Virus record (IMG/VR): IMGVR_UViG_3300035390_000014
Span: 96,001 to 160,000 of that record
Origin: a virus
Taxonomy: Duplodnaviria; Caudoviricetes
Length of the DNA: 64,000 nt
Direction: 5' to 3' (one strand)
Shown: in pieces, positions 10,367 through 51,743 of the stretch
Layout: each line of letters opens with the position of its first letter
Position numbering within the stretch: position 1 is the stretch's first letter
Position numbers and translations under genes: made by a program
Notes under the pieces: model-generated
The model's database searches: none
What the model saw: the letters and a program-made list of their open reading frames with translations, nothing else
Told to the model about the DNA's origin: nothing

Positions 10367-10442
10367 AGGTCAGTAGCTCTAATGGGAGAGCACCAGACTC
10401 CAAATCTGGGTGTTGGGGGTTCGAATCCCTTCTGGCCTGCCA
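10367..10442 (+). tRNA. tRNA-Trp(CCA)
   Basis: Acceptor AGGTCAG/CTGGCCT, CCAGA-CTCCAAA-TCTGG, encoded CCA. Confidence 0.95.
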
Positions 10443-10451
10443 AAATTTTAT

Positions 10452-10527
10452 AGTCCATTAGCTTAATCGGGAAAGCACAGTCCTTATAAGACTGAGAGAC
10501 TGGGATCGTAACCCAGATGGACTACCA
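10452..10527 (+). tRNA. tRNA-Ile(UAU)
   Basis: AGTCCAT/ATGGACT, CAGTC-CTTATAA-GACTG, T-loop ATCGTAA, CCA. Confidence 0.9.
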
Positions 10528-21396: not shown

Positions 21397-21490
21397 GAAC
21401 GAACGAAAAAGGCACGGGATCACGTGGTCCCACGCAAAGTCACAGGTCTTTTATAAAGGATAAAAGATGGCTGGTCTACCGAAAACGTTC
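21397..21490 (+). promoter_or_regulatory. c-di-GMP-I (GEMM) riboswitch, copy 2
   Basis: Same core; P1 GAACG/CGTTC; P2 and P3 loops differ from copy 1. Confidence 0.8.
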
Positions 21491-28697: not shown

Positions 28698-28761
28698 TTC
28701 AATGGTAGAATGCAAGTTTTGTAATCTTGTTATGGGGGTTCAAATCCTCTCAGGTGCTCCA
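28688..28761 (+). tRNA. tRNA-Thr(UGU)
   Basis: GCACCTG/CAGGTGC, loop TTTGTAA, CCA. Confidence 0.88.
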
Positions 28762-28770
28762 AACAAATAT

Positions 28771-28847
28771 GCAACTGTAGCTCAGTCTGGTAGAGCGTCT
28801 GGGTGAAGTCCAGAGCGTCGGGGGTTCAATTCCTCTCGGTTGCACCA
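28771..28847 (+). tRNA. tRNA-Phe(GAA)
   Basis: TCTGG-GTGAAGT-CCAGA, A73-CCA. Confidence 0.9.
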
Positions 28848-41328: not shown

Positions 41329-41402
41329 GGGGACATCGTATAGCGGGAATACATTGCCCTTGCACGGCAAAAACCAGAGTTCGATTCTCTGTGTCTCCAC
41401 CA
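41329..41402 (+). tRNA. tRNA-Ala(UGC)
   Basis: GGGGACA/TGTCTCC with G3:U70, TTGCC-CTTGCAC-GGCAA. Confidence 0.93.
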
Positions 41403-41464
41403 TTATTAATTCATTATAAAAAACAATTATTATATATATTAATAACTATAATGCAACACATTAA

Positions 41465-41618
41465 TTTGTATTTTATAAAAGGTTAAGAACGGAAAGATTA
41501 TACATAAAATAACTCAGGTGGTAGAGTATTTGCCTCAAAAGCAAACTGTCGTTGGTTCAATTCCAACTTTTAACAAAACCTAATCTTTTATATTACTTAA
41601 CCTTTTATAAGATACAAA
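41465..41618 (+). ncRNA. Y-RNA-like unit 1 (tRNA body joined at the acceptor end)
   Basis: 23-bp terminal IR, GAACG/ATTACT internal loop; D arm, TTTGC-CTCAAAA-GCAAA, T arm GTTGG-TTCAATT-CCAAC. Confidence 0.8.
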
Positions 41619-41622
41619 TTTA

Positions 41623-41761
41623 AATGAGAGAACGAAAAATGATTACAGATTATTACTATGATTAAGTAAAGGTCGCAGGTTCGAGTCCTGTCATAAGGGA
41701 AACTTTATGTAACTCAGTTGGTAGAGATTATATCAACAATCATTTTTATATTACTCTCATT
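41623..41761 (+). ncRNA. Y-RNA-like unit 2 (circularly permuted tRNA: anticodon, T, acceptor, D)
   Basis: AATGAGAG/CTCTCATT stem; TTACT-ATGATTA-AGTAA; GCAGG-TTCGAGT-CCTGT; CATAAG/CTTTATG; ACTC-AGTTGGTA-GAG. Confidence 0.8.
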
Positions 41762-41872
41762 ACATTTTTGTAGATCGCCGGTGGGTGACTATGCACCTTG
41801 GAAAACATAACTTTAGATGACTGGTAATTATCCGGTATATATCTAATTTCCCGGGGATCTACAATACAATTT

Positions 41873-42002
41873 GCCCTCATTGAGAGCGTTTCTACCAAGG
41901 AGCCATAATGTTGAATCTAGATAGATGTTATGGAAATTGATTAGAGCGAGAGGTATTCTCATTGGTCTTAGGATCAGATAGGTTCGAGTCCTATTGGGGG
42001 CT
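41873..42002 (+). ncRNA. tRNA-like RNA (acceptor plus T arm) with large central domain
   Basis: GCCCTCA/TGGGGGC, ATAGG-TTCGAGT-CCTAT; nested stems TGAGA/TCTCA and CCATAA/TTATGG. Confidence 0.55.
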
Positions 42003-42012
42003 GAATAATTTT

Positions 42013-42160
42013 AATGGAAGAACGGAAAATAATTACAGTAGTCCATTAGGAGGACGTGTTTGGAGGTTCGAATCCTTCTTTCCCCACCACACATTTATGG
42101 GGAAATAGGCAAACTGGTACAGCCGCGTAATACAACAATTATTTTTAAATTACTTCCATT
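42013..42160 (+). ncRNA. Y-RNA-like unit 3 (permuted tRNA with internal ACCA)
   Basis: AATGGAAG/CTTCCATT; GTCC-ATTAGGA-GGAC; GGAGG-TTCGAAT-CCTTC; TTTCCCCA/TGGGGAAA; D arm GGC..GCC. Confidence 0.8.
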
Positions 42161-42240
42161 ACTTTTTTATGCCGGGTGATACGTATGTTTATCCATACGC
42201 CGGCTCCATTATTATAATAATAAAAAACAGGGAGATTAGG

Positions 42241-42717
42241 ATGAAAATGAAAACAAGTTTAATTTATGGTTTAATTTTGGTAATGGTTTCTATGTTAGCA
42301 ATTTCATGTAGTCAAAGGAAATTGGTAACAACTCCTGTTTTTAAAATGACTATTGCTGAAGTAAAAGTTGCAGCTCCTGAACCTGCAACAGTAACTGATA
42401 TCAGAGAAAGCATAATGTTTAAATATGATAGCTCTGTTATTGAAGAAATTGAAATGAAAAAGGTTGAAGAAATTGCTGGAGTAATGGCACTTTATTCTGA
42501 TACAGACCTAGTCCTTAAAGGTTATGCAAGTTCAGAAGGTACAACCGAATATAATACTGAACTTTCTTTAGCAAGGGCTGAAGTTGTAAAAGCTGAATTA
42601 CTAAGCCTGGGTGTTTCAGAAGATCGCATTCTTATACTAGGTCATGGAGCAACCAATGAATTTGGTGAGCTTCTAGATTTAAACAGAAGAGTCCTTGTTT
42701 TAAGCATGGATGAATAA
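42241..42717 (+). CDS. OmpA-family peptidoglycan-binding lipoprotein
   Basis: LAIS-C lipobox; GYASSEG..YN..LS..RA..VK; NRRV. Confidence 0.85.
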   Translation: MKMKTSLIYGLILVMVSMLAISCSQRKLVTTPVFKMTIAEVKVAAPEPATVTDIRESIMFKYDSSVIEEIEMKKVEEIAGVMALYSDTDLVLKGYASSEGTTEYNTELSLARAEVVKAELLSLGVSEDRILILGHGATNEFGELLDLNRRVLVLSMDE

Positions 42718-42725
42718 CAATATTT

Positions 42726-42810
42726 AAGTCAGAACGAAAAGAGATTACAGTAAAAATTAATGCTTCCAAACAGCAATACAATACAACAATTTCTTTTGAA
42801 TTACTGACTT
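42726..42810 (+). ncRNA. Y-RNA-like unit 4 (stem plus single hairpin)
   Basis: AAGTCAG/CTGACTT, GAACG/ATTACT; TGCT-TCCAAAC-AGCA. Confidence 0.7.
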
Positions 42811-42824
42811 TACATTTTTAAACT

Positions 42825-43090
42825 ATATGAGGTTTGTCGTTTTGAAATATGAAACGAATACTTTAATCAGGATTTGTATTTTGCTATTTTATTGCCCTGG
42901 ATAATACCGGCCCCCAATGGGACTGCCTGGTTACTGGGCCTGCATAACCCACGCGCGTGGTTGGCACTTTAGATCCTGAAAAAGTAAAAAATAGCTGAAA
43001 ACGTGGAGACTATCCACTACTAGATTTGACAACCTAGAAACTAGTACACAGTAAGCTGAGATTGTCAGTCTTAGAATCTGTGCCTCATAT
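42825..43090 (+). ncRNA. unclassified structured RNA, ~265 nt
   Basis: ATATGAGG/CCTCATAT closing stem, several nested stems, GC-rich core, possible pseudoknot. Confidence 0.55.
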
Positions 43091-43102
43091 TACAATTTTT
43101 AG

Positions 43103-43249
43103 AGAGTTAGAACGAAAAAATATTCCAGATATACAATATAGGTTCAATCCCTATTTTGGGCTCCAAGCATGCCCATGCTGACAATTGGCTGTCAACTTGT
43201 CTTAAACAACAGGTGTAATAAATAAAATATTTTTTAAATTACTAACTCT
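43103..43249 (+). ncRNA. Y-RNA-like unit 5 (permuted tRNA: T, acceptor, D, anticodon)
   Basis: AGAGTTAG/CTAACTCT; ATAGG-TTCAATC-CCTAT; TGGGC/GCCCA; TGAC/GTCA; CTTGT/ACAGG. Confidence 0.8.
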
Positions 43250-43350
43250 TTTATTTAAAATATTCGTCATAACCTTAACCAGTTATGACGAATATTTTTT
43301 TGCCGACAATAGGAACGAATCATTTTAAACGTGAAAAGGAGAAAATCCGA

Positions 43351-44958
43351 ATGGTTAATTTACCTGTTCGAATTGAAGAAAAATTTGTTAACGCAAATTT
43401 AAGAAAAATTGGGCAAGACATTGAAACAACTATGTCTTTATTTGGCACTGATATGAACAGAGCTACACATTATAACACCAAAGAAGAGTTAGCAGCTATG
43501 AGCGAAAAAGAACATAGAAATATGTTTTCTATTGATCGTTCAATCTATGGCTGTATTGCTTGTCTACCTGGTACAACTGATATTTCTAAAATGAAAGTTG
43601 TTACCAATCTTTTAGGTATCTCATGGGAGCATGGATCTGATTTTCAAGTCACTACTCCTATTCTTACAATAGAACAGGAAAGATTAATCATTGATCATCT
43701 GGTATCAACACTTCCTCCAAATAGAATGATAAATTTGTTTGCTTCTTTTGAGGATAGTCGAGTTAACAATACCCGTATGAGAAAAACAGTTCTTCCTTTT
43801 ATTCTTAACTCAGGTAGTCTTGGGTGGTGGGCAGTTAAGTATAGAAGTAAATTGAAAACTGTATTATCTCATTGTTGGGGTAAAAAGATGACAAGTGTTA
43901 TTGTTTCTATCATTGGGAAAAGAGCAAAGACCCAAAAAGAAAATGATATCCTTGATTCCTTTATTGGTAAGTATATTGTTATCGTTGAGAAGACTAAACG
44001 TAAGGCTATATTTGAATGTCTACGTTTTATCTTTTCTGTTGGTGATAATTTTACCAACCATCTTTTTGTAAATTTCCATGCTTCAAAAACTGATTTCTCA
44101 AAAGCAAAAGGTTTGCCAAAAGAAGTAATTGAAGGTATAAGAGCGGCTTATCACCCAACTCTGGATAAAGCTGAAACCTTAAAAGTTGCTGAGTCGTCAA
44201 TGACTAACAAGGAAAAACGTTTGGTCCAAAACCAGGCTGTTAAAACTGGAGTTAAAATTGAATGGGACCCTAAGACACAACCATTGGTCGAACTCTTTAT
44301 ATACGGGTTTAAAATGGGGTTCACCAATGCAATACATGATGCTATTCTACAAAAATCTGATAGAGCTGGTCAAGCATTGCCATTTACCTATGATAAAGTT
44401 GGGATCATTTGTGACGATAGTTTTTCAATGAGTGGTTCTGAAGATCAGAAACTGAAAGCATTGGCTATAAGTTATGCTACAGTTGAAACATTGAAAGGTG
44501 TTGGTTCTACGACTCTGGTGGCATCTACTTCTGGTAGACGTCCATCATATACCAATAGTCCAATGGGTGAATCAAATCTGGCAAAACCTTTACTTAAATT
44601 GTTAAAGAGAGATGTAGATGTTATCTTTGTTGTATCTGATGGTTATGAAAATGCACCAGAAGGTAGATTTGGAGAAGTGTTGAAAATTGCCAGGGATAAA
44701 GCTGGAGTAACAACCCCAGTATATCATTTTAATCCAGTTGGAGCTGCTGAAAGTAAAGTTGCTGTAAAAAGATTATCTAATGATGTTCCGGTGACTCCGG
44801 TGACTAATCCAGAGAAAATGGGTCTTTCATTATTTAAGACAATGATAGCAGCTGATCCAAAACAAGGGATTGTTAGATTGTTTAACATGGTTCTTCCAGA
44901 ATTGGAAAAGACTAAACTATTATACTCTCGGGTTAACCTAGAAGCTATAAGCGAATAA
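43351..44958 (+). CDS. TROVE/Ro60-like protein with C-terminal vWA domain
   Basis: vWA MIDAS CDDSFSMSG and SDGYEN; long predicted helical N-terminus; start at ATG 43351 after AAGGAG. The TROVE relationship is inferred. Confidence 0.65.
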   Translation: MVNLPVRIEEKFVNANLRKIGQDIETTMSLFGTDMNRATHYNTKEELAAMSEKEHRNMFSIDRSIYGCIACLPGTTDISKMKVVTNLLGISWEHGSDFQVTTPILTIEQERLIIDHLVSTLPPNRMINLFASFEDSRVNNTRMRKTVLPFILNSGSLGWWAVKYRSKLKTVLSHCWGKKMTSVIVSIIGKRAKTQKENDILDSFIGKYIVIVEKTKRKAIFECLRFIFSVGDNFTNHLFVNFHASKTDFSKAKGLPKEVIEGIRAAYHPTLDKAETLKVAESSMTNKEKRLVQNQAVKTGVKIEWDPKTQPLVELFIYGFKMGFTNAIHDAILQKSDRAGQALPFTYDKVGIICDDSFSMSGSEDQKLKALAISYATVETLKGVGSTTLVASTSGRRPSYTNSPMGESNLAKPLLKLLKRDVDVIFVVSDGYENAPEGRFGEVLKIARDKAGVTTPVYHFNPVGAAESKVAVKRLSNDVPVTPVTNPEKMGLSLFKTMIAADPKQGIVRLFNMVLPELEKTKLLYSRVNLEAISE

Positions 44959-44968
44959 GGAGAATAAA

Positions 44969-45994
44969 ATGGAAATTACAATTGCAGAAGTGTTGAAAGG
45001 ATGTACTCCTGGTCGTATGCAAAGCGCTGGGTATATGCAGATGGTTCCATTACTATCTGAACCTGATATGATTGATAAAAGATTTGGAGCATTTACTGGA
45101 ATACTATCAAGTACCCATGATTATGGAACAGTTCATTTAGAAAATAAAGAAGACTTTCCAACAATCATGCCCATGGGAACTGCTATTTTAACTACACAAA
45201 GTGCTCAGAATCATGCTCTTGGTAAAGTTAAATTAATGACCAGAATGTCCGAATCAAATATTGATACAGCAGCTTGTATCCAGGATACTCAGGGTGGGAT
45301 CATTAGAAGCGGTGTTCATAGTTTATCAATCCTCCCATATTCAATTCGTGAGAAAGCGTTGGAAATAAAGGATAAGAGAGGTTATAGTAAACTATGGCCT
45401 GCTATCAAAGTATTTAATGAGGAAGTTGGGATTGAAGAAGGTAACTACCGTTCCATGGGTCATCTTGAACATTACCTGGAAACATTTGGTGATAAGCTTG
45501 ACGAGTTCATTGGTCAGTTTGAAATTGTTCCAAATCAAGTCGGAGCAATTATTTTGTTAAATGGTCAAATTGCTGGTGTTGAAAGAGCACCCAATTATGA
45601 TTTCTGGAAAGAATTGTGGAAACCATTGATTCGTGAATGTTATGGTTCTGCATCTTTGGTATTTGCTAAGAAAGGTGAGAAACCTTCACCACCACTTGGA
45701 AGAATGCCGATTAATGATCACTTGGTTAAAAACATTGATGATCTTGAAACTGAATATAATAAGGCTGAAAAACATGAAGAAGATACTGTAAAGAATCTTA
45801 TTCGGAATTTTATTCAGCAACCATTTACTGCCACTCGGGAAGAAAATGAACCCAATGGTACTATTTGTGTGGATCATCTTAGTGGTGGTCAATTCACTGG
45901 ACAGATTGTTAGAGACAGCGCATTTGTTGTTTATGCCAGTCTGGTTCCAGATAAGAATGCTCGATTTAATACAGCAGCAGCATTTACAATTTAA
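44969..45994 (+). CDS. ARPP/DUF6569-like protein
   Basis: QMVPLL, G..L....AQNH, AACIQ..QGG, QVGAIILLNG..AGVE resemble ARPP-type domains recalled as vWA gene neighbours. Confidence 0.5.
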   Translation: MEITIAEVLKGCTPGRMQSAGYMQMVPLLSEPDMIDKRFGAFTGILSSTHDYGTVHLENKEDFPTIMPMGTAILTTQSAQNHALGKVKLMTRMSESNIDTAACIQDTQGGIIRSGVHSLSILPYSIREKALEIKDKRGYSKLWPAIKVFNEEVGIEEGNYRSMGHLEHYLETFGDKLDEFIGQFEIVPNQVGAIILLNGQIAGVERAPNYDFWKELWKPLIRECYGSASLVFAKKGEKPSPPLGRMPINDHLVKNIDDLETEYNKAEKHEEDTVKNLIRNFIQQPFTATREENEPNGTICVDHLSGGQFTGQIVRDSAFVVYASLVPDKNARFNTAAAFTI

Positions 45995-51667: not shown

Positions 51668-51743
51668 GCCGGTGTAGCTTATTGGGAGAGCCGAGAACTC
51701 TAAATTCTTGATTGAGTAAGTTCGATCCTTACCATCGGCACCA
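51668..51743 (+). tRNA. amber suppressor tRNA (CUA)
   Basis: GCCGGTG/CATCGGC, GAGAA-CTCTAAA-TTCTT, canonical D and T arms, A73-CCA. Confidence 0.88.

What the first reader, a model, noticed from the sequence alone, without database searches (positions are those of the whole stretch)
41465..43249. The tRNA cloverleaf is grafted onto the shared stem at different permutation points, with anticodon arms kept
Seen: unit 1 runs D, anticodon (CAA), T and is joined at the acceptor end. Units 2 and 3 run anticodon (GAT; TAG), variable, T, closed acceptor, D and are joined at the D/anticodon junction. Unit 5 runs T, acceptor, D, anticodon (TAA-like) and is joined in the variable loop. Unit 4 has only a 7-nt-loop hairpin (centre CAA). 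Known: in canonical YrlA the Ro-binding stem replaces the anticodon arm. Here anticodon loops survive and are mostly Leu-type. Inference: protein-tethered anticodon decoys or tRNA-mimic adaptors that present different tRNA faces.
Basis: partly seen in the sequence, partly recalled or inferred. Interest (0 to 1): 0.85.

Follow-up and report, generated by a model that had tools for sequence, protein, structure and literature searches.

The report
Phage Y-like RNAs carrying rearranged tRNAs
A large phage encodes five small RNAs that share one protein-binding handle and, in four of them, carry a tRNA-shaped head attached at three different points of the cloverleaf; this extends the known Y RNA tRNA mimics that partner Ro60 proteins.

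Summary
Five + strand units (41482-43247) share a bulged two-helix handle. The motif AGAACGRAAA occurs five times in the whole 202.7 kb record, all here.

- U1 holds an unpermuted tRNA joined at a 5-bp acceptor stem, without CCA.
- U2 and U3 run anticodon-like hairpin, variable loop, T arm, closed acceptor, D arm.
- U5 runs T arm, acceptor, D arm, anticodon arm, and is joined in the variable region.
- U4 has only a small hairpin, which relatives do not keep.

Relatives keep all three designs, with compensatory base changes (93.6-97.1% of cells paired, against 37-60% when partners are slid). The U5 design is the most widespread: 67 of 78 loci with matches, always upstream of the same gene. That gene has the Ro60 fold, and an ARPP-1 gene follows it in 90 of 96 loci.

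- The U2/U3 joint may lie two nucleotides inside the anticodon stem.
- The Leu-type anticodons are not conserved. Loop positions 32, 33, 37 and 38 are kept, but 34-36 are nearly random (23 triplets in 48 units).

Best reading: Y-RNA-like adaptors of a divergent phage Ro60-ARPP complex that display generic tRNA mimics. A decoy role is untested. This is a new variant of a known kind. The scan has noted similar Ro60-like handle RNAs in Felix O1-type phages.

The parts
41463..41620 (+). U1: handle plus unpermuted tRNA-like head (design A). Core unit 41482-41601. The lower helix extends to a 25-nt inverted repeat. tRNA-like part 41503-41575, anticodon loop CUCAAAA, no CCA.
41625..41759 (+). U2: handle plus permuted head (design C, closed type). 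Order: anticodon-like hairpin 41653-41669, AGGUC, T arm, 7-bp acceptor capped by GAAA, D arm.
   Evidence: (Rfam YrlA 35.8 bits, E 1.3e-5, below the gathering score of 69)
42015..42158 (+). U3: handle plus permuted head (design C, CCA type). Order: 3-4-bp hairpin with loop AUUAGGA, 5-nt variable loop, T arm, 7-bp acceptor whose loop begins ACCA, 3-bp D stem.
42727..42809 (+). U4: handle with a short head. The 4-bp hairpin with 7-nt loop UCCAAAC (42761-42775) is not conserved in relatives.
43105..43247 (+). U5: handle plus permuted head (design B). Order: T arm, acceptor with UCCA and spacer in its loop, D arm, anticodon arm (8-nt loop holding UUAAAC). Joined to the handle in the variable region. 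This is the most widespread design.
43257..43298 (+). Perfect 17-bp hairpin followed by a T run. Likely terminator between the RNA array and the Ro60-like gene.
   Evidence: (I8); role inferred
43308..43368 (+). Handle look-alike in the leader of the Ro60-like gene (AACG and AATTTA loops). The Shine-Dalgarno sequence lies in the apical loop and the ATG (43351) in the 3' strand of the upper helix. Possible autoregulatory operator.
   Evidence: role inferred
43351..44958 (+). Ro60-like protein (helical-repeat ring plus vWA/MIDAS domain). No Pfam hit, but Ro60 fold.
44969..45994 (+). ARPP-1 family protein, the conserved downstream partner. Predicted to dock on the vWA/MIDAS face of the Ro60-like protein.

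Best explanation
The five units are Y-RNA-like small RNAs of a divergent phage Ro60-ARPP-1 module.

Anatomy:
- Each RNA pairs its 5' and 3' ends into one conserved handle. The handle is a lower helix, an internal loop AACG opposite RAAUUA, a 9-bp upper helix, and the linkers UACAG(U/A)A and ACAACA.
- By analogy with Ro60 and Y RNAs, the handle is the docking site of the ring protein encoded just downstream.
- On top of the handle sits a tRNA-shaped head.

The head is the same object cut open at different places:
- at the acceptor end (U1);
- at or just inside the top of the anticodon stem (U2, U3);
- in the variable region (U5).

The ring therefore holds an L-shaped tRNA mimic by a different corner each time and leaves different faces free. 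The heads keep generic tRNA features: T loop, D-loop GG, the 15-48 tertiary pair, and a 7-nt anticodon-type loop with U33 and A37 A38. They do not keep any particular anticodon, so they mimic 'a tRNA' rather than one isoacceptor.

The likely job is to tether tRNA-recognising enzymes or factors to the Ro60-like/ARPP complex, or to present mimic substrates to them.

What is shown and what is inferred:
- Shown: the structures, their conservation, the gene linkage and the protein fold.
- Inferred: protein-RNA binding, processing, and the adaptor role.
For: Handle:
- It is unique to this locus: 5 of 5 exact motif matches in the 202.7 kb record. Only these five are full-length matches of model R1.
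- Its helices covary.
- It holds the CGAA-type motif reported for Ro60-binding Y RNAs (PMC12135203, PMC4201824).

Heads:
- Design A: 93.6% of cells paired, 27 of 34 pairs with changes on both sides.
- Design B: 95.5% paired, 27 of 35.
- U3 type: 93.8% paired, 17 of 34.
- U2 type: 97.1% paired, 12 of 29.
- Slid controls give 37-60% paired.
- The anticodon arm has 5 of 5 pairs compensated in designs A and B.
- The 15-48 tertiary pair covaries: G-C 28, A-U 14, other 3 of 45.
- ARAGORN calls the rotated heads tRNAs; 0 of 24 shuffles gave a call.

Linkage:
- 202 model matches, all on the + strand (the strand of the Ro60-like gene) and nearly all in the stretch upstream of it.
- The order A-(short)-C-C-(short)-B is kept in the close clade.

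Proteins:
- The top 13 PDB fold matches are all Ro60.
- ARPP-1 lies downstream in 90 of 96 loci.
- Complex prediction: score 0.64, best of 3 controls 0.00. That mark was reached by 58 of 80 solved complexes and 2 of 110 mismatched pairs. The runs share at least 88% of contacts, and the partner's pLDDT is at least 82.

Not ordinary tRNA genes:
- U1 lacks CCA, while all 25 other tRNAs in the window encode it.
- The design A acceptor stem is 5 bp.
Against: - There are no expression, end-mapping or binding data. No RNA library is listed for this DNA.
- No unit reaches Rfam's YrlA gathering score, and the protein has no Pfam TROVE hit.
- The Ro60 fold match has modest TM-scores (0.35-0.46).
- The U3-type hairpin is weakly supported.
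- The handle differs from published Ro60-binding stems, so binding is by analogy only.
- The partner recruited by the tRNA heads is unknown.
Confidence: 0.7

Rival explanations
1. Permuted, two-piece tRNAs. RNase P and 3' trimming open the CCA-bearing acceptor loops of U3 and U5. This gives split molecules, held together by the handle, with a free CCA end. These are charged and act in translation, or as chargeable tRNA-like factors.
For: - 7-bp acceptor stems with NCCA in exact register 73-76: 31 of 51 design B units and 13 of 19 design C units.
- M. smegmatis YrlA is cleaved by RNase P and receives CCA in vivo (PMC4201824).
- The same gene order occurs in permuted tmRNA genes; there is a weak Rfam tmRNA_permuted hit, E 1.3.
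- The phage encodes a CCA-adding enzyme family protein.
Against: - Anticodon positions are nearly random among orthologous units.
- The window's triplets mostly duplicate tRNAs the phage already has.
- 20 of 51 design B units have short closed loops without CCA.
- U5 has a U-U mismatch in its acceptor stem and an 8-nt loop.
- Processing alone would be compatible with the best explanation.
Confidence: 0.12
2. Anticodon decoys. The tethered heads soak up host anticodon nucleases or other tRNA-targeting defence toxins, and the variable anticodons reflect an arms race.
For: - Generic anticodon-loop geometry is kept while 34-36 vary: 23 triplets in 48 units.
- The phage carries a large tRNA set, which is often read as a counter to tRNA-targeting defence (general knowledge).
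- Ro60 systems are linked to tRNA damage responses (PMC7790460).
Against: - There is no conserved anticodon within orthologous units, and no resemblance to cognate tRNAs.
- Variation at 34-36 is equally explained by lack of constraint.
- Many loops have A or G at position 33, so they lack the U-turn of real substrates.
- No nuclease target is known for this uncultured phage's host.
Confidence: 0.12
3. Structured leader. The array, or at least U4-U5, is a cis-acting 5' leader that regulates the Ro60-like/ARPP operon, with the tRNA-like parts acting as sensors.
For: - U5 lies about 100 nt upstream of the gene.
- A handle look-alike overlaps the start codon.
Against: - A strong hairpin followed by a T run separates U5 from the gene.
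- An OmpA-family gene splits the array in this window but not in L088.
- Each unit is a self-closed module with its own covarying terminal helix.
Confidence: 0.04
4. Decayed tRNA genes or junctions of tandem tRNA genes without function.
For: - Junctions of ordinary tandem tRNAs give partial matches to the design B model.
- Permuted heads could have arisen from a tandem tRNA duplicate.
Against: - Compensatory changes occur in every helix, including the acceptor stem that joins the two 'halves' (7 of 7 pairs).
- The units are conserved down to 25% protein identity of the neighbouring gene.
Confidence: 0.02

Closest known systems
YrlA (Rfam RF02553), the tRNA-like Y RNA of bacterial and phage Ro60/Rsr (PMC4201824; 10.1101/312249)
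   Same: - Encoded next to a Ro60-fold gene.
- The ends pair into a bulged handle with a CGAA-type motif.
- The head has T arm, closed acceptor stem and D arm in that order (U2, U3).
- The 15-48 tertiary pair covaries.
   Different: - In YrlA the stem leading to the Ro60 site takes the place of the anticodon arm, and there is no anticodon loop. Here U2/U3 keep a hairpin with a 7-nt loop followed by a normal 5-nt variable loop, and U1 and U5 are joined elsewhere.
- No unit reaches the Rfam gathering score (35.8 against 69).
- The handle sequence and the protein are divergent.
Deinococcus radiodurans Yrn1 as modelled by Chen et al. 2014 (PMC4201824)
   Same: Like U1, the T and D arms are in tRNA order, with an anticodon-arm-like hairpin between them and the Ro60-binding stem at the acceptor position. 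That paper already noted that YrlA and Yrn1 differ in orientation.
   Different: - Yrn1 has a 6-nt loop, no variable region and a doubtful D arm.
- U1-type heads are complete cloverleaves (Rfam tRNA 54.2 bits).
- The two orientations were known from different species, not from one locus.
Mycobacterium smegmatis YrlA, cleaved by RNase P and given CCA (PMC4201824)
   Same: A 7-bp acceptor stem in a closed head, which can be opened into a two-piece RNA still bound by Rsr.
   Different: Here NCCA and a spacer are already encoded in the loop (U3, U5). Cleavage has not been tested.
Circularly permuted tmRNA genes (Rfam RF04321) and permuted tRNA genes of Cyanidioschyzon (from my own knowledge)
   Same: The 3' acceptor strand with CCA lies upstream of the 5' acceptor strand, separated by a spacer.
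   Different: - Those RNAs are translation components with fixed identity.
- No bulge-helix-bulge splice motif is seen here, and the anticodons are not conserved.
- The termini form a protein-binding handle.
Thermus phage phiLo Ro60 with Yrl1/Yrl2 (PMC12135203)
   Same: A phage-encoded Ro60 with several Y-like RNAs encoded upstream and a CGAA motif in a bulged stem.
   Different: - The phiLo Yrls are described as stem-bulge-stem RNAs without permuted tRNA heads.
- There is no ARPP-1 partner.

Membership tests
YrlA (RF02553) | Reaches the Rfam gathering score (69 bits) | tested here: not met
   U2 35.8 bits (E 1.3e-5), U3 17.3 bits (E 3); U1, U4 and U5 have no match.
YrlA (RF02553) | Encoded beside a Ro60 ortholog | tested here: met
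   The downstream gene has the Ro60 fold. Units lie upstream of its relatives in 78 loci.
YrlA (RF02553) | 5' and 3' ends form a bulged stem with the GNCGAA-type motif in the 5' strand | tested here: inconclusive
   The covarying two-helix handle has AACG in its 5' internal loop. CGAA is present in U2, U4 and U5, and CGGA in U1 and U3. The match to the published motif is partial.
YrlA (RF02553) | Head is T arm, closed acceptor, D arm, with the Ro60-binding stem in place of the anticodon arm and no anticodon loop | tested here: not met
   U1 and U5 are joined at the acceptor end and in the variable region. U2 and U3 keep a hairpin with a 7-nt loop before the variable loop.
YrlA (RF02553) | Bound by Ro60/Rsr | not testable with these tools
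   Needs EMSA or immunoprecipitation.
tRNA (RF00005), for U1 | Cloverleaf reaching the gathering score | tested here: met
   54.2 bits against 29; ARAGORN calls tRNA-Leu(CAA).
tRNA (RF00005), for U1 | 7-bp acceptor stem and a 3' CCA, as in this phage's own tRNA genes | tested here: not met
   The first two acceptor pairs are mismatched. There is no CCA, while 25 of 25 other tRNAs in the window encode it. The same 5-bp stem occurs in 18 relatives.
Permuted or split tRNA genes | 3' half with CCA upstream of the 5' half, complementary acceptor strands | tested here: met
   U3 and U5; 7 of 7 acceptor pairs compensated in design B.
Permuted or split tRNA genes | Anticodon identity conserved among orthologs, as a decoding function requires | tested here: not met
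   23 triplets in 48 design B units; information 0.01-0.5 bit at positions 34-36.
Ro60/TROVE protein family (downstream gene) | Pfam TROVE domain match | tested here: not met
   No family at E up to 10 except an irrelevant weak hit. Distant sequence homologs are named TROVE by their sources.
Ro60/TROVE protein family (downstream gene) | Helical-repeat ring closed by a vWA domain with MIDAS residues | tested here: met
   Model pLDDT 84.5. The top 13 PDB matches are all Ro60, E 3e-6 to 2.5e-3. D355, S357 and S359 are invariant.

The most novel reading that the evidence does not exclude
The phage family makes Ro60-tethered, complete tRNA look-alikes. In the widespread variable-region design they carry both an anticodon loop and an encoded CCA end. 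RNase P opens them into two-piece, chargeable tRNA-like molecules. These would be the first permuted or split tRNAs of a bacteriophage. They would serve as baits or sensors for host factors that attack tRNAs, with the fast-changing anticodon positions recording an arms race. ARPP-1, docked on the MIDAS face of the ring, would be the enzyme that acts on what the bait catches.
Probability: 0.1. Interest if true: 0.9.

Novelty: new variant of a known kind. Interest (0 to 1): 0.62.

Why it matters
What the tRNA-like domain of bacterial Y RNAs is for has been open since 2014.

- This family offers a natural experiment. The same handle and the same protein pair hold a tRNA mimic by the acceptor end, by the anticodon stem or by the variable region, sometimes all in one locus.
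- The family shows which tRNA features are kept (elbow, 15-48 pair, generic anticodon-loop frame) and which are free (the anticodon itself).
- That narrows the kind of partner to look for. It also gives defined RNAs for binding, RNase P and structural work.
- The work links a divergent Ro60 clade to ARPP-1, a domain so far discussed in ADP-ribose conflict systems. The predicted contact is at the MIDAS site, whose role in Ro60 is unknown.

Tried and rejected
- A single-protein search of viral contigs found no relatives. It worked once an alignment was used.
- blastn against GenBank phages gave only one 109-nt match.
- A 15-base handle pattern in viral contigs gave only single matches per contig, which I took for chance. 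The two-part pattern gave 0 in viral contigs and 6 useful metagenome loci.
- ARAGORN in intron mode found nothing in the odd tRNA-like element 41870-42004.
- RtcB was not found in the record, which is 65% complete.
- 'Mostly Leu-type' as a family property: rejected.
- Heads as recent copies of the phage's cognate tRNAs: rejected. The best matches are non-cognate, at 64-69% identity.
- U4 as an anticodon mimic: rejected. The hairpin is not conserved.
- An unconstrained stem scan of the window was too permissive in this A+T-rich DNA. It was replaced by loop-anchored scans.
- The review PMC6047535 is not held.
Full report
**What is there**

The window is part of a 202.7 kb phage record. It holds 26 tRNA genes, a tmRNA and many short genes.

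Between tRNA-Ala (41329-41402) and a 535-aa gene (43351-44958) lie five + strand units:
- Each unit starts with a short helix strand, then AACG, then a 9-nt A-rich strand and UACAG.
- Each ends with ACAACA-like sequence, the complementary 9-nt strand, RAAUUA and the complementary outer strand.
- The 10-mer AGAACGRAAA occurs exactly five times in the window and in the whole record, all at these units.
- A covariance model of one design finds only these five as full-length matches in the record.

**The four cloverleaf arrangements**

- U1 contains a 73-nt sequence that Rfam scores as tRNA at 54.2 bits and ARAGORN calls Leu(CAA). Its first two acceptor pairs are mismatched. It also lacks CCA, whereas all 25 other tRNAs in the window encode NCCA.
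- U2 runs 5-bp hairpin with 7-nt loop, AGGUC, T arm, 7-bp acceptor stem closed by GAAA, D arm. Rfam's YrlA model matches it at 35.8 bits (E 1.3e-5), below the gathering score of 69.
- U3 has the same order, but its acceptor loop begins ACCA followed by a 9-nt spacer.
- U5 runs T arm, acceptor (UCCA plus spacer), D arm, anticodon arm.
- U4 has a 4-bp hairpin only.

When the heads of U2 and U3 are cut in the acceptor loop, rotated and stripped of the linkers, ARAGORN calls them tRNA-Ile(GAU) and tRNA-Leu(UAG). Their relatives behave the same way. None of 24 dinucleotide shuffles gave any call, and U5 itself gave none. The rotated heads are 72-77 nt long.

**Relatives**

- The downstream protein has 95 homologs. 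An alignment of them (A1) retrieved 80 viral loci.
- Look-ups of close homologs and one pattern scan of metagenomes added 16 more loci.
- A locus at 60% protein identity (L088) shows the same array, unit by unit, with changed but still complementary stems.
- A loop-anchored stem scan and the model R1 found 202 matches in 97 sources. All are on the + strand, the strand of the Ro60-like gene, and nearly all lie in the stretch upstream of it.
- Among 111 distinct units, 51 have the U5 design (B), 22 the U1 design (A), 19 the U2/U3 design (C) and 19 are short.
- Design B is present in 67 of 78 loci with matches and always lies nearest the gene.
- The order A-(short)-C-C-(short)-B is kept in the window's clade. 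More distant phages mostly have A-B or B alone. Design C with a hairpin is confined to the close clade.

**Covariation**

| Design | Sequences | Cells paired | Pairs changed on both sides | Anticodon-type helix |
|---|---|---|---|---|
| B (U5) | 14 | 95.5% | 27 of 35 | 5 of 5 pairs compensated |
| A (U1) | 18 | 93.6% | 27 of 34 | 5 of 5 pairs compensated |
| C, U2 type | 6 | 97.1% | 12 of 29 | 100% paired, two compensated pairs |
| C, U3 type | 10 | 93.8% | 17 of 34 | 76.9% paired, one compensated pair |

- In every case the slid controls give 37-60% paired, and 0 of 500 shuffles reach the observed covariation score.
- In the U3 type, the outer pair of the hairpin is unpaired in 7 of 9 sequences.
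- The tRNA tertiary pair 15-48 covaries in design B: G-C 28, A-U 14, other 3 of 45. This is the same argument Chen et al. used for YrlA (PMC4201824).

**Where exactly U2 and U3 are joined**

- In both subtypes the two nucleotides after N26 can pair with positions 42-43, which are the 3' end of the hairpin.
- This pairing shows one double change in each subtype. In the U3 type, C-G becomes U-A in L212. In the U2 type, U-A (4 sequences) alternates with C-G (2 sequences).
- The top two pairs of the hairpin show no double change.
- So the handle may leave the cloverleaf after nucleotide 28, making a three-way junction, rather than at 26. Probing is needed to decide.

**The anticodon question**

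- In design B, 48 of 51 distinct units have a perfect 5-bp stem and a 7-nt loop.
- Positions 32, 33, 37 and 38 are conserved (C/U, U, A, A). Positions 34-36 carry 0.01-0.5 bit, with 23 different triplets.
- Leu-type triplets are 5 of 48 in design B, 3 of 14 in design A and 0 of 8 in the U2 type.
- Only the U3 lineage is mostly UAG or CAG (6 of 10).
- The rotated heads resemble non-cognate phage tRNAs best.
- The loops therefore mimic a generic anticodon loop, not leucine tRNAs.

**CCA in the acceptor loop**

- NCCA stands in exact register in 31 of 51 design B units and 13 of 19 design C units. The rest have short closed loops.
- Junctions of ordinary tandem tRNAs give partial matches to the design B model.
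- This suggests that permuted heads arose from a tandem tRNA duplicate trimmed at both ends. That origin is inference.

**The proteins**

- The 535-aa protein has no Pfam hit. Its model (pLDDT 84.5) matches only Ro60 structures in its 13 best PDB hits, including Rsr and phage phiLo Ro60.
- The next gene is ARPP-1. It follows the Ro60-like gene in 90 of 96 loci.
- A complex prediction scored 0.64, against 0.00 for the best of 3 controls. That mark was reached by 58 of 80 solved complexes and 2 of 110 mismatched pairs. The runs share at least 88% of contacts, and the partner's pLDDT is at least 82. The interface is on the MIDAS residues. This supports binding but does not show it.
- ARPP has been discussed only in ADP-ribose-centred conflict systems (PMC9503650).

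**Comparison with what is known**

- Canonical YrlA lacks an anticodon loop and a free CCA end, and its anticodon-stem equivalent leads to the Ro60 site (10.1101/312249).
- Yrn1 was modelled in the opposite orientation. The authors noted the difference between species (PMC4201824).
- M. smegmatis YrlA is opened by RNase P and gets CCA (PMC4201824).
- Phage Ro60 with Y-like RNAs is known (PMC12135203, PMC7824862).
- What I did not find in the literature searched:
  - the variable-region design with a full anticodon arm;
  - the coexistence of three designs on one handle in one locus;
  - the ARPP-1 partnership.
- Earlier notes of this scan describe comparable handle RNAs beside Ro60-like genes in Felix O1-type phages.

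**Verdict**

The adaptor interpretation is plausible and fits the context. The Leu-decoy part is not supported as a family property. I rate this a new variant of a known kind.

Noticed in passing
window 43308-43368: A look-alike of the RNA handle sits over the start of the Ro60-like gene. The Shine-Dalgarno sequence is in the loop and the ATG in the upper helix. It is kept in L086, L087 and L212, and with changed but still pairing upper-helix strands in L091. This looks like an autoregulatory operator.
   Followed up: partly
window 41870-42004; L088:4993-5127: A 135-nt tRNA-like RNA with a 7-bp acceptor stem, a T arm and a small variable-arm-like hairpin, plus a large conserved insertion (hairpin CCAUAA.../...UUAUGG) where the D/anticodon region should be. 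ARAGORN does not call it, even with introns allowed. The L088 copy encodes CCA.
   Followed up: partly
window 41766-41866: A 100-nt element closed by a 9+4-bp G+C-rich stem, between U2 and the odd tRNA-like RNA. No Rfam match.
   Followed up: no
window 42825-43095; L088:5620-5900: A roughly 270-nt G+C-rich structured RNA between U4 and U5. Its 3' part (GGAGACUAUCCA ... CAGUAAGCUGAG) is conserved in L088. No Rfam match.
   Followed up: partly
window 42244-42717: An OmpA-family lipoprotein-like gene is inserted inside the RNA array, between U3 and U4. It is present in the 88% relative's contig but absent from L088.
   Followed up: no
window 43351-45994 and 90 related loci: The Ro60-like gene and an ARPP-1 gene form a strictly conserved pair. 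The predicted contact is at the vWA MIDAS site of the Ro60-like protein (score 0.64, best of 3 controls 0.00).
   Followed up: yes
window 51668-51743: A tRNA with anticodon CUA (reads UAG) among the phage tRNAs. This is a possible sign of stop-codon reassignment or suppression late in infection.
   Followed up: no
window 10415-10497 and 28734-28814: Junctions of tandem tRNA genes (Trp/Ile, Thr/Phe) partly match the permuted-head model. This fits an origin of the permuted heads from tandem tRNA duplicates.
   Followed up: partly
L088:5406-5460: A 55-nt unit that is nothing but the handle with a 15-nt apical loop. It is a natural minimal handle, useful as a binding control.
   Followed up: no
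window 21401-21483: A c-di-GMP-I riboswitch match (39.1 bits, gathering score 35) inside the phage tRNA region.
   Followed up: no
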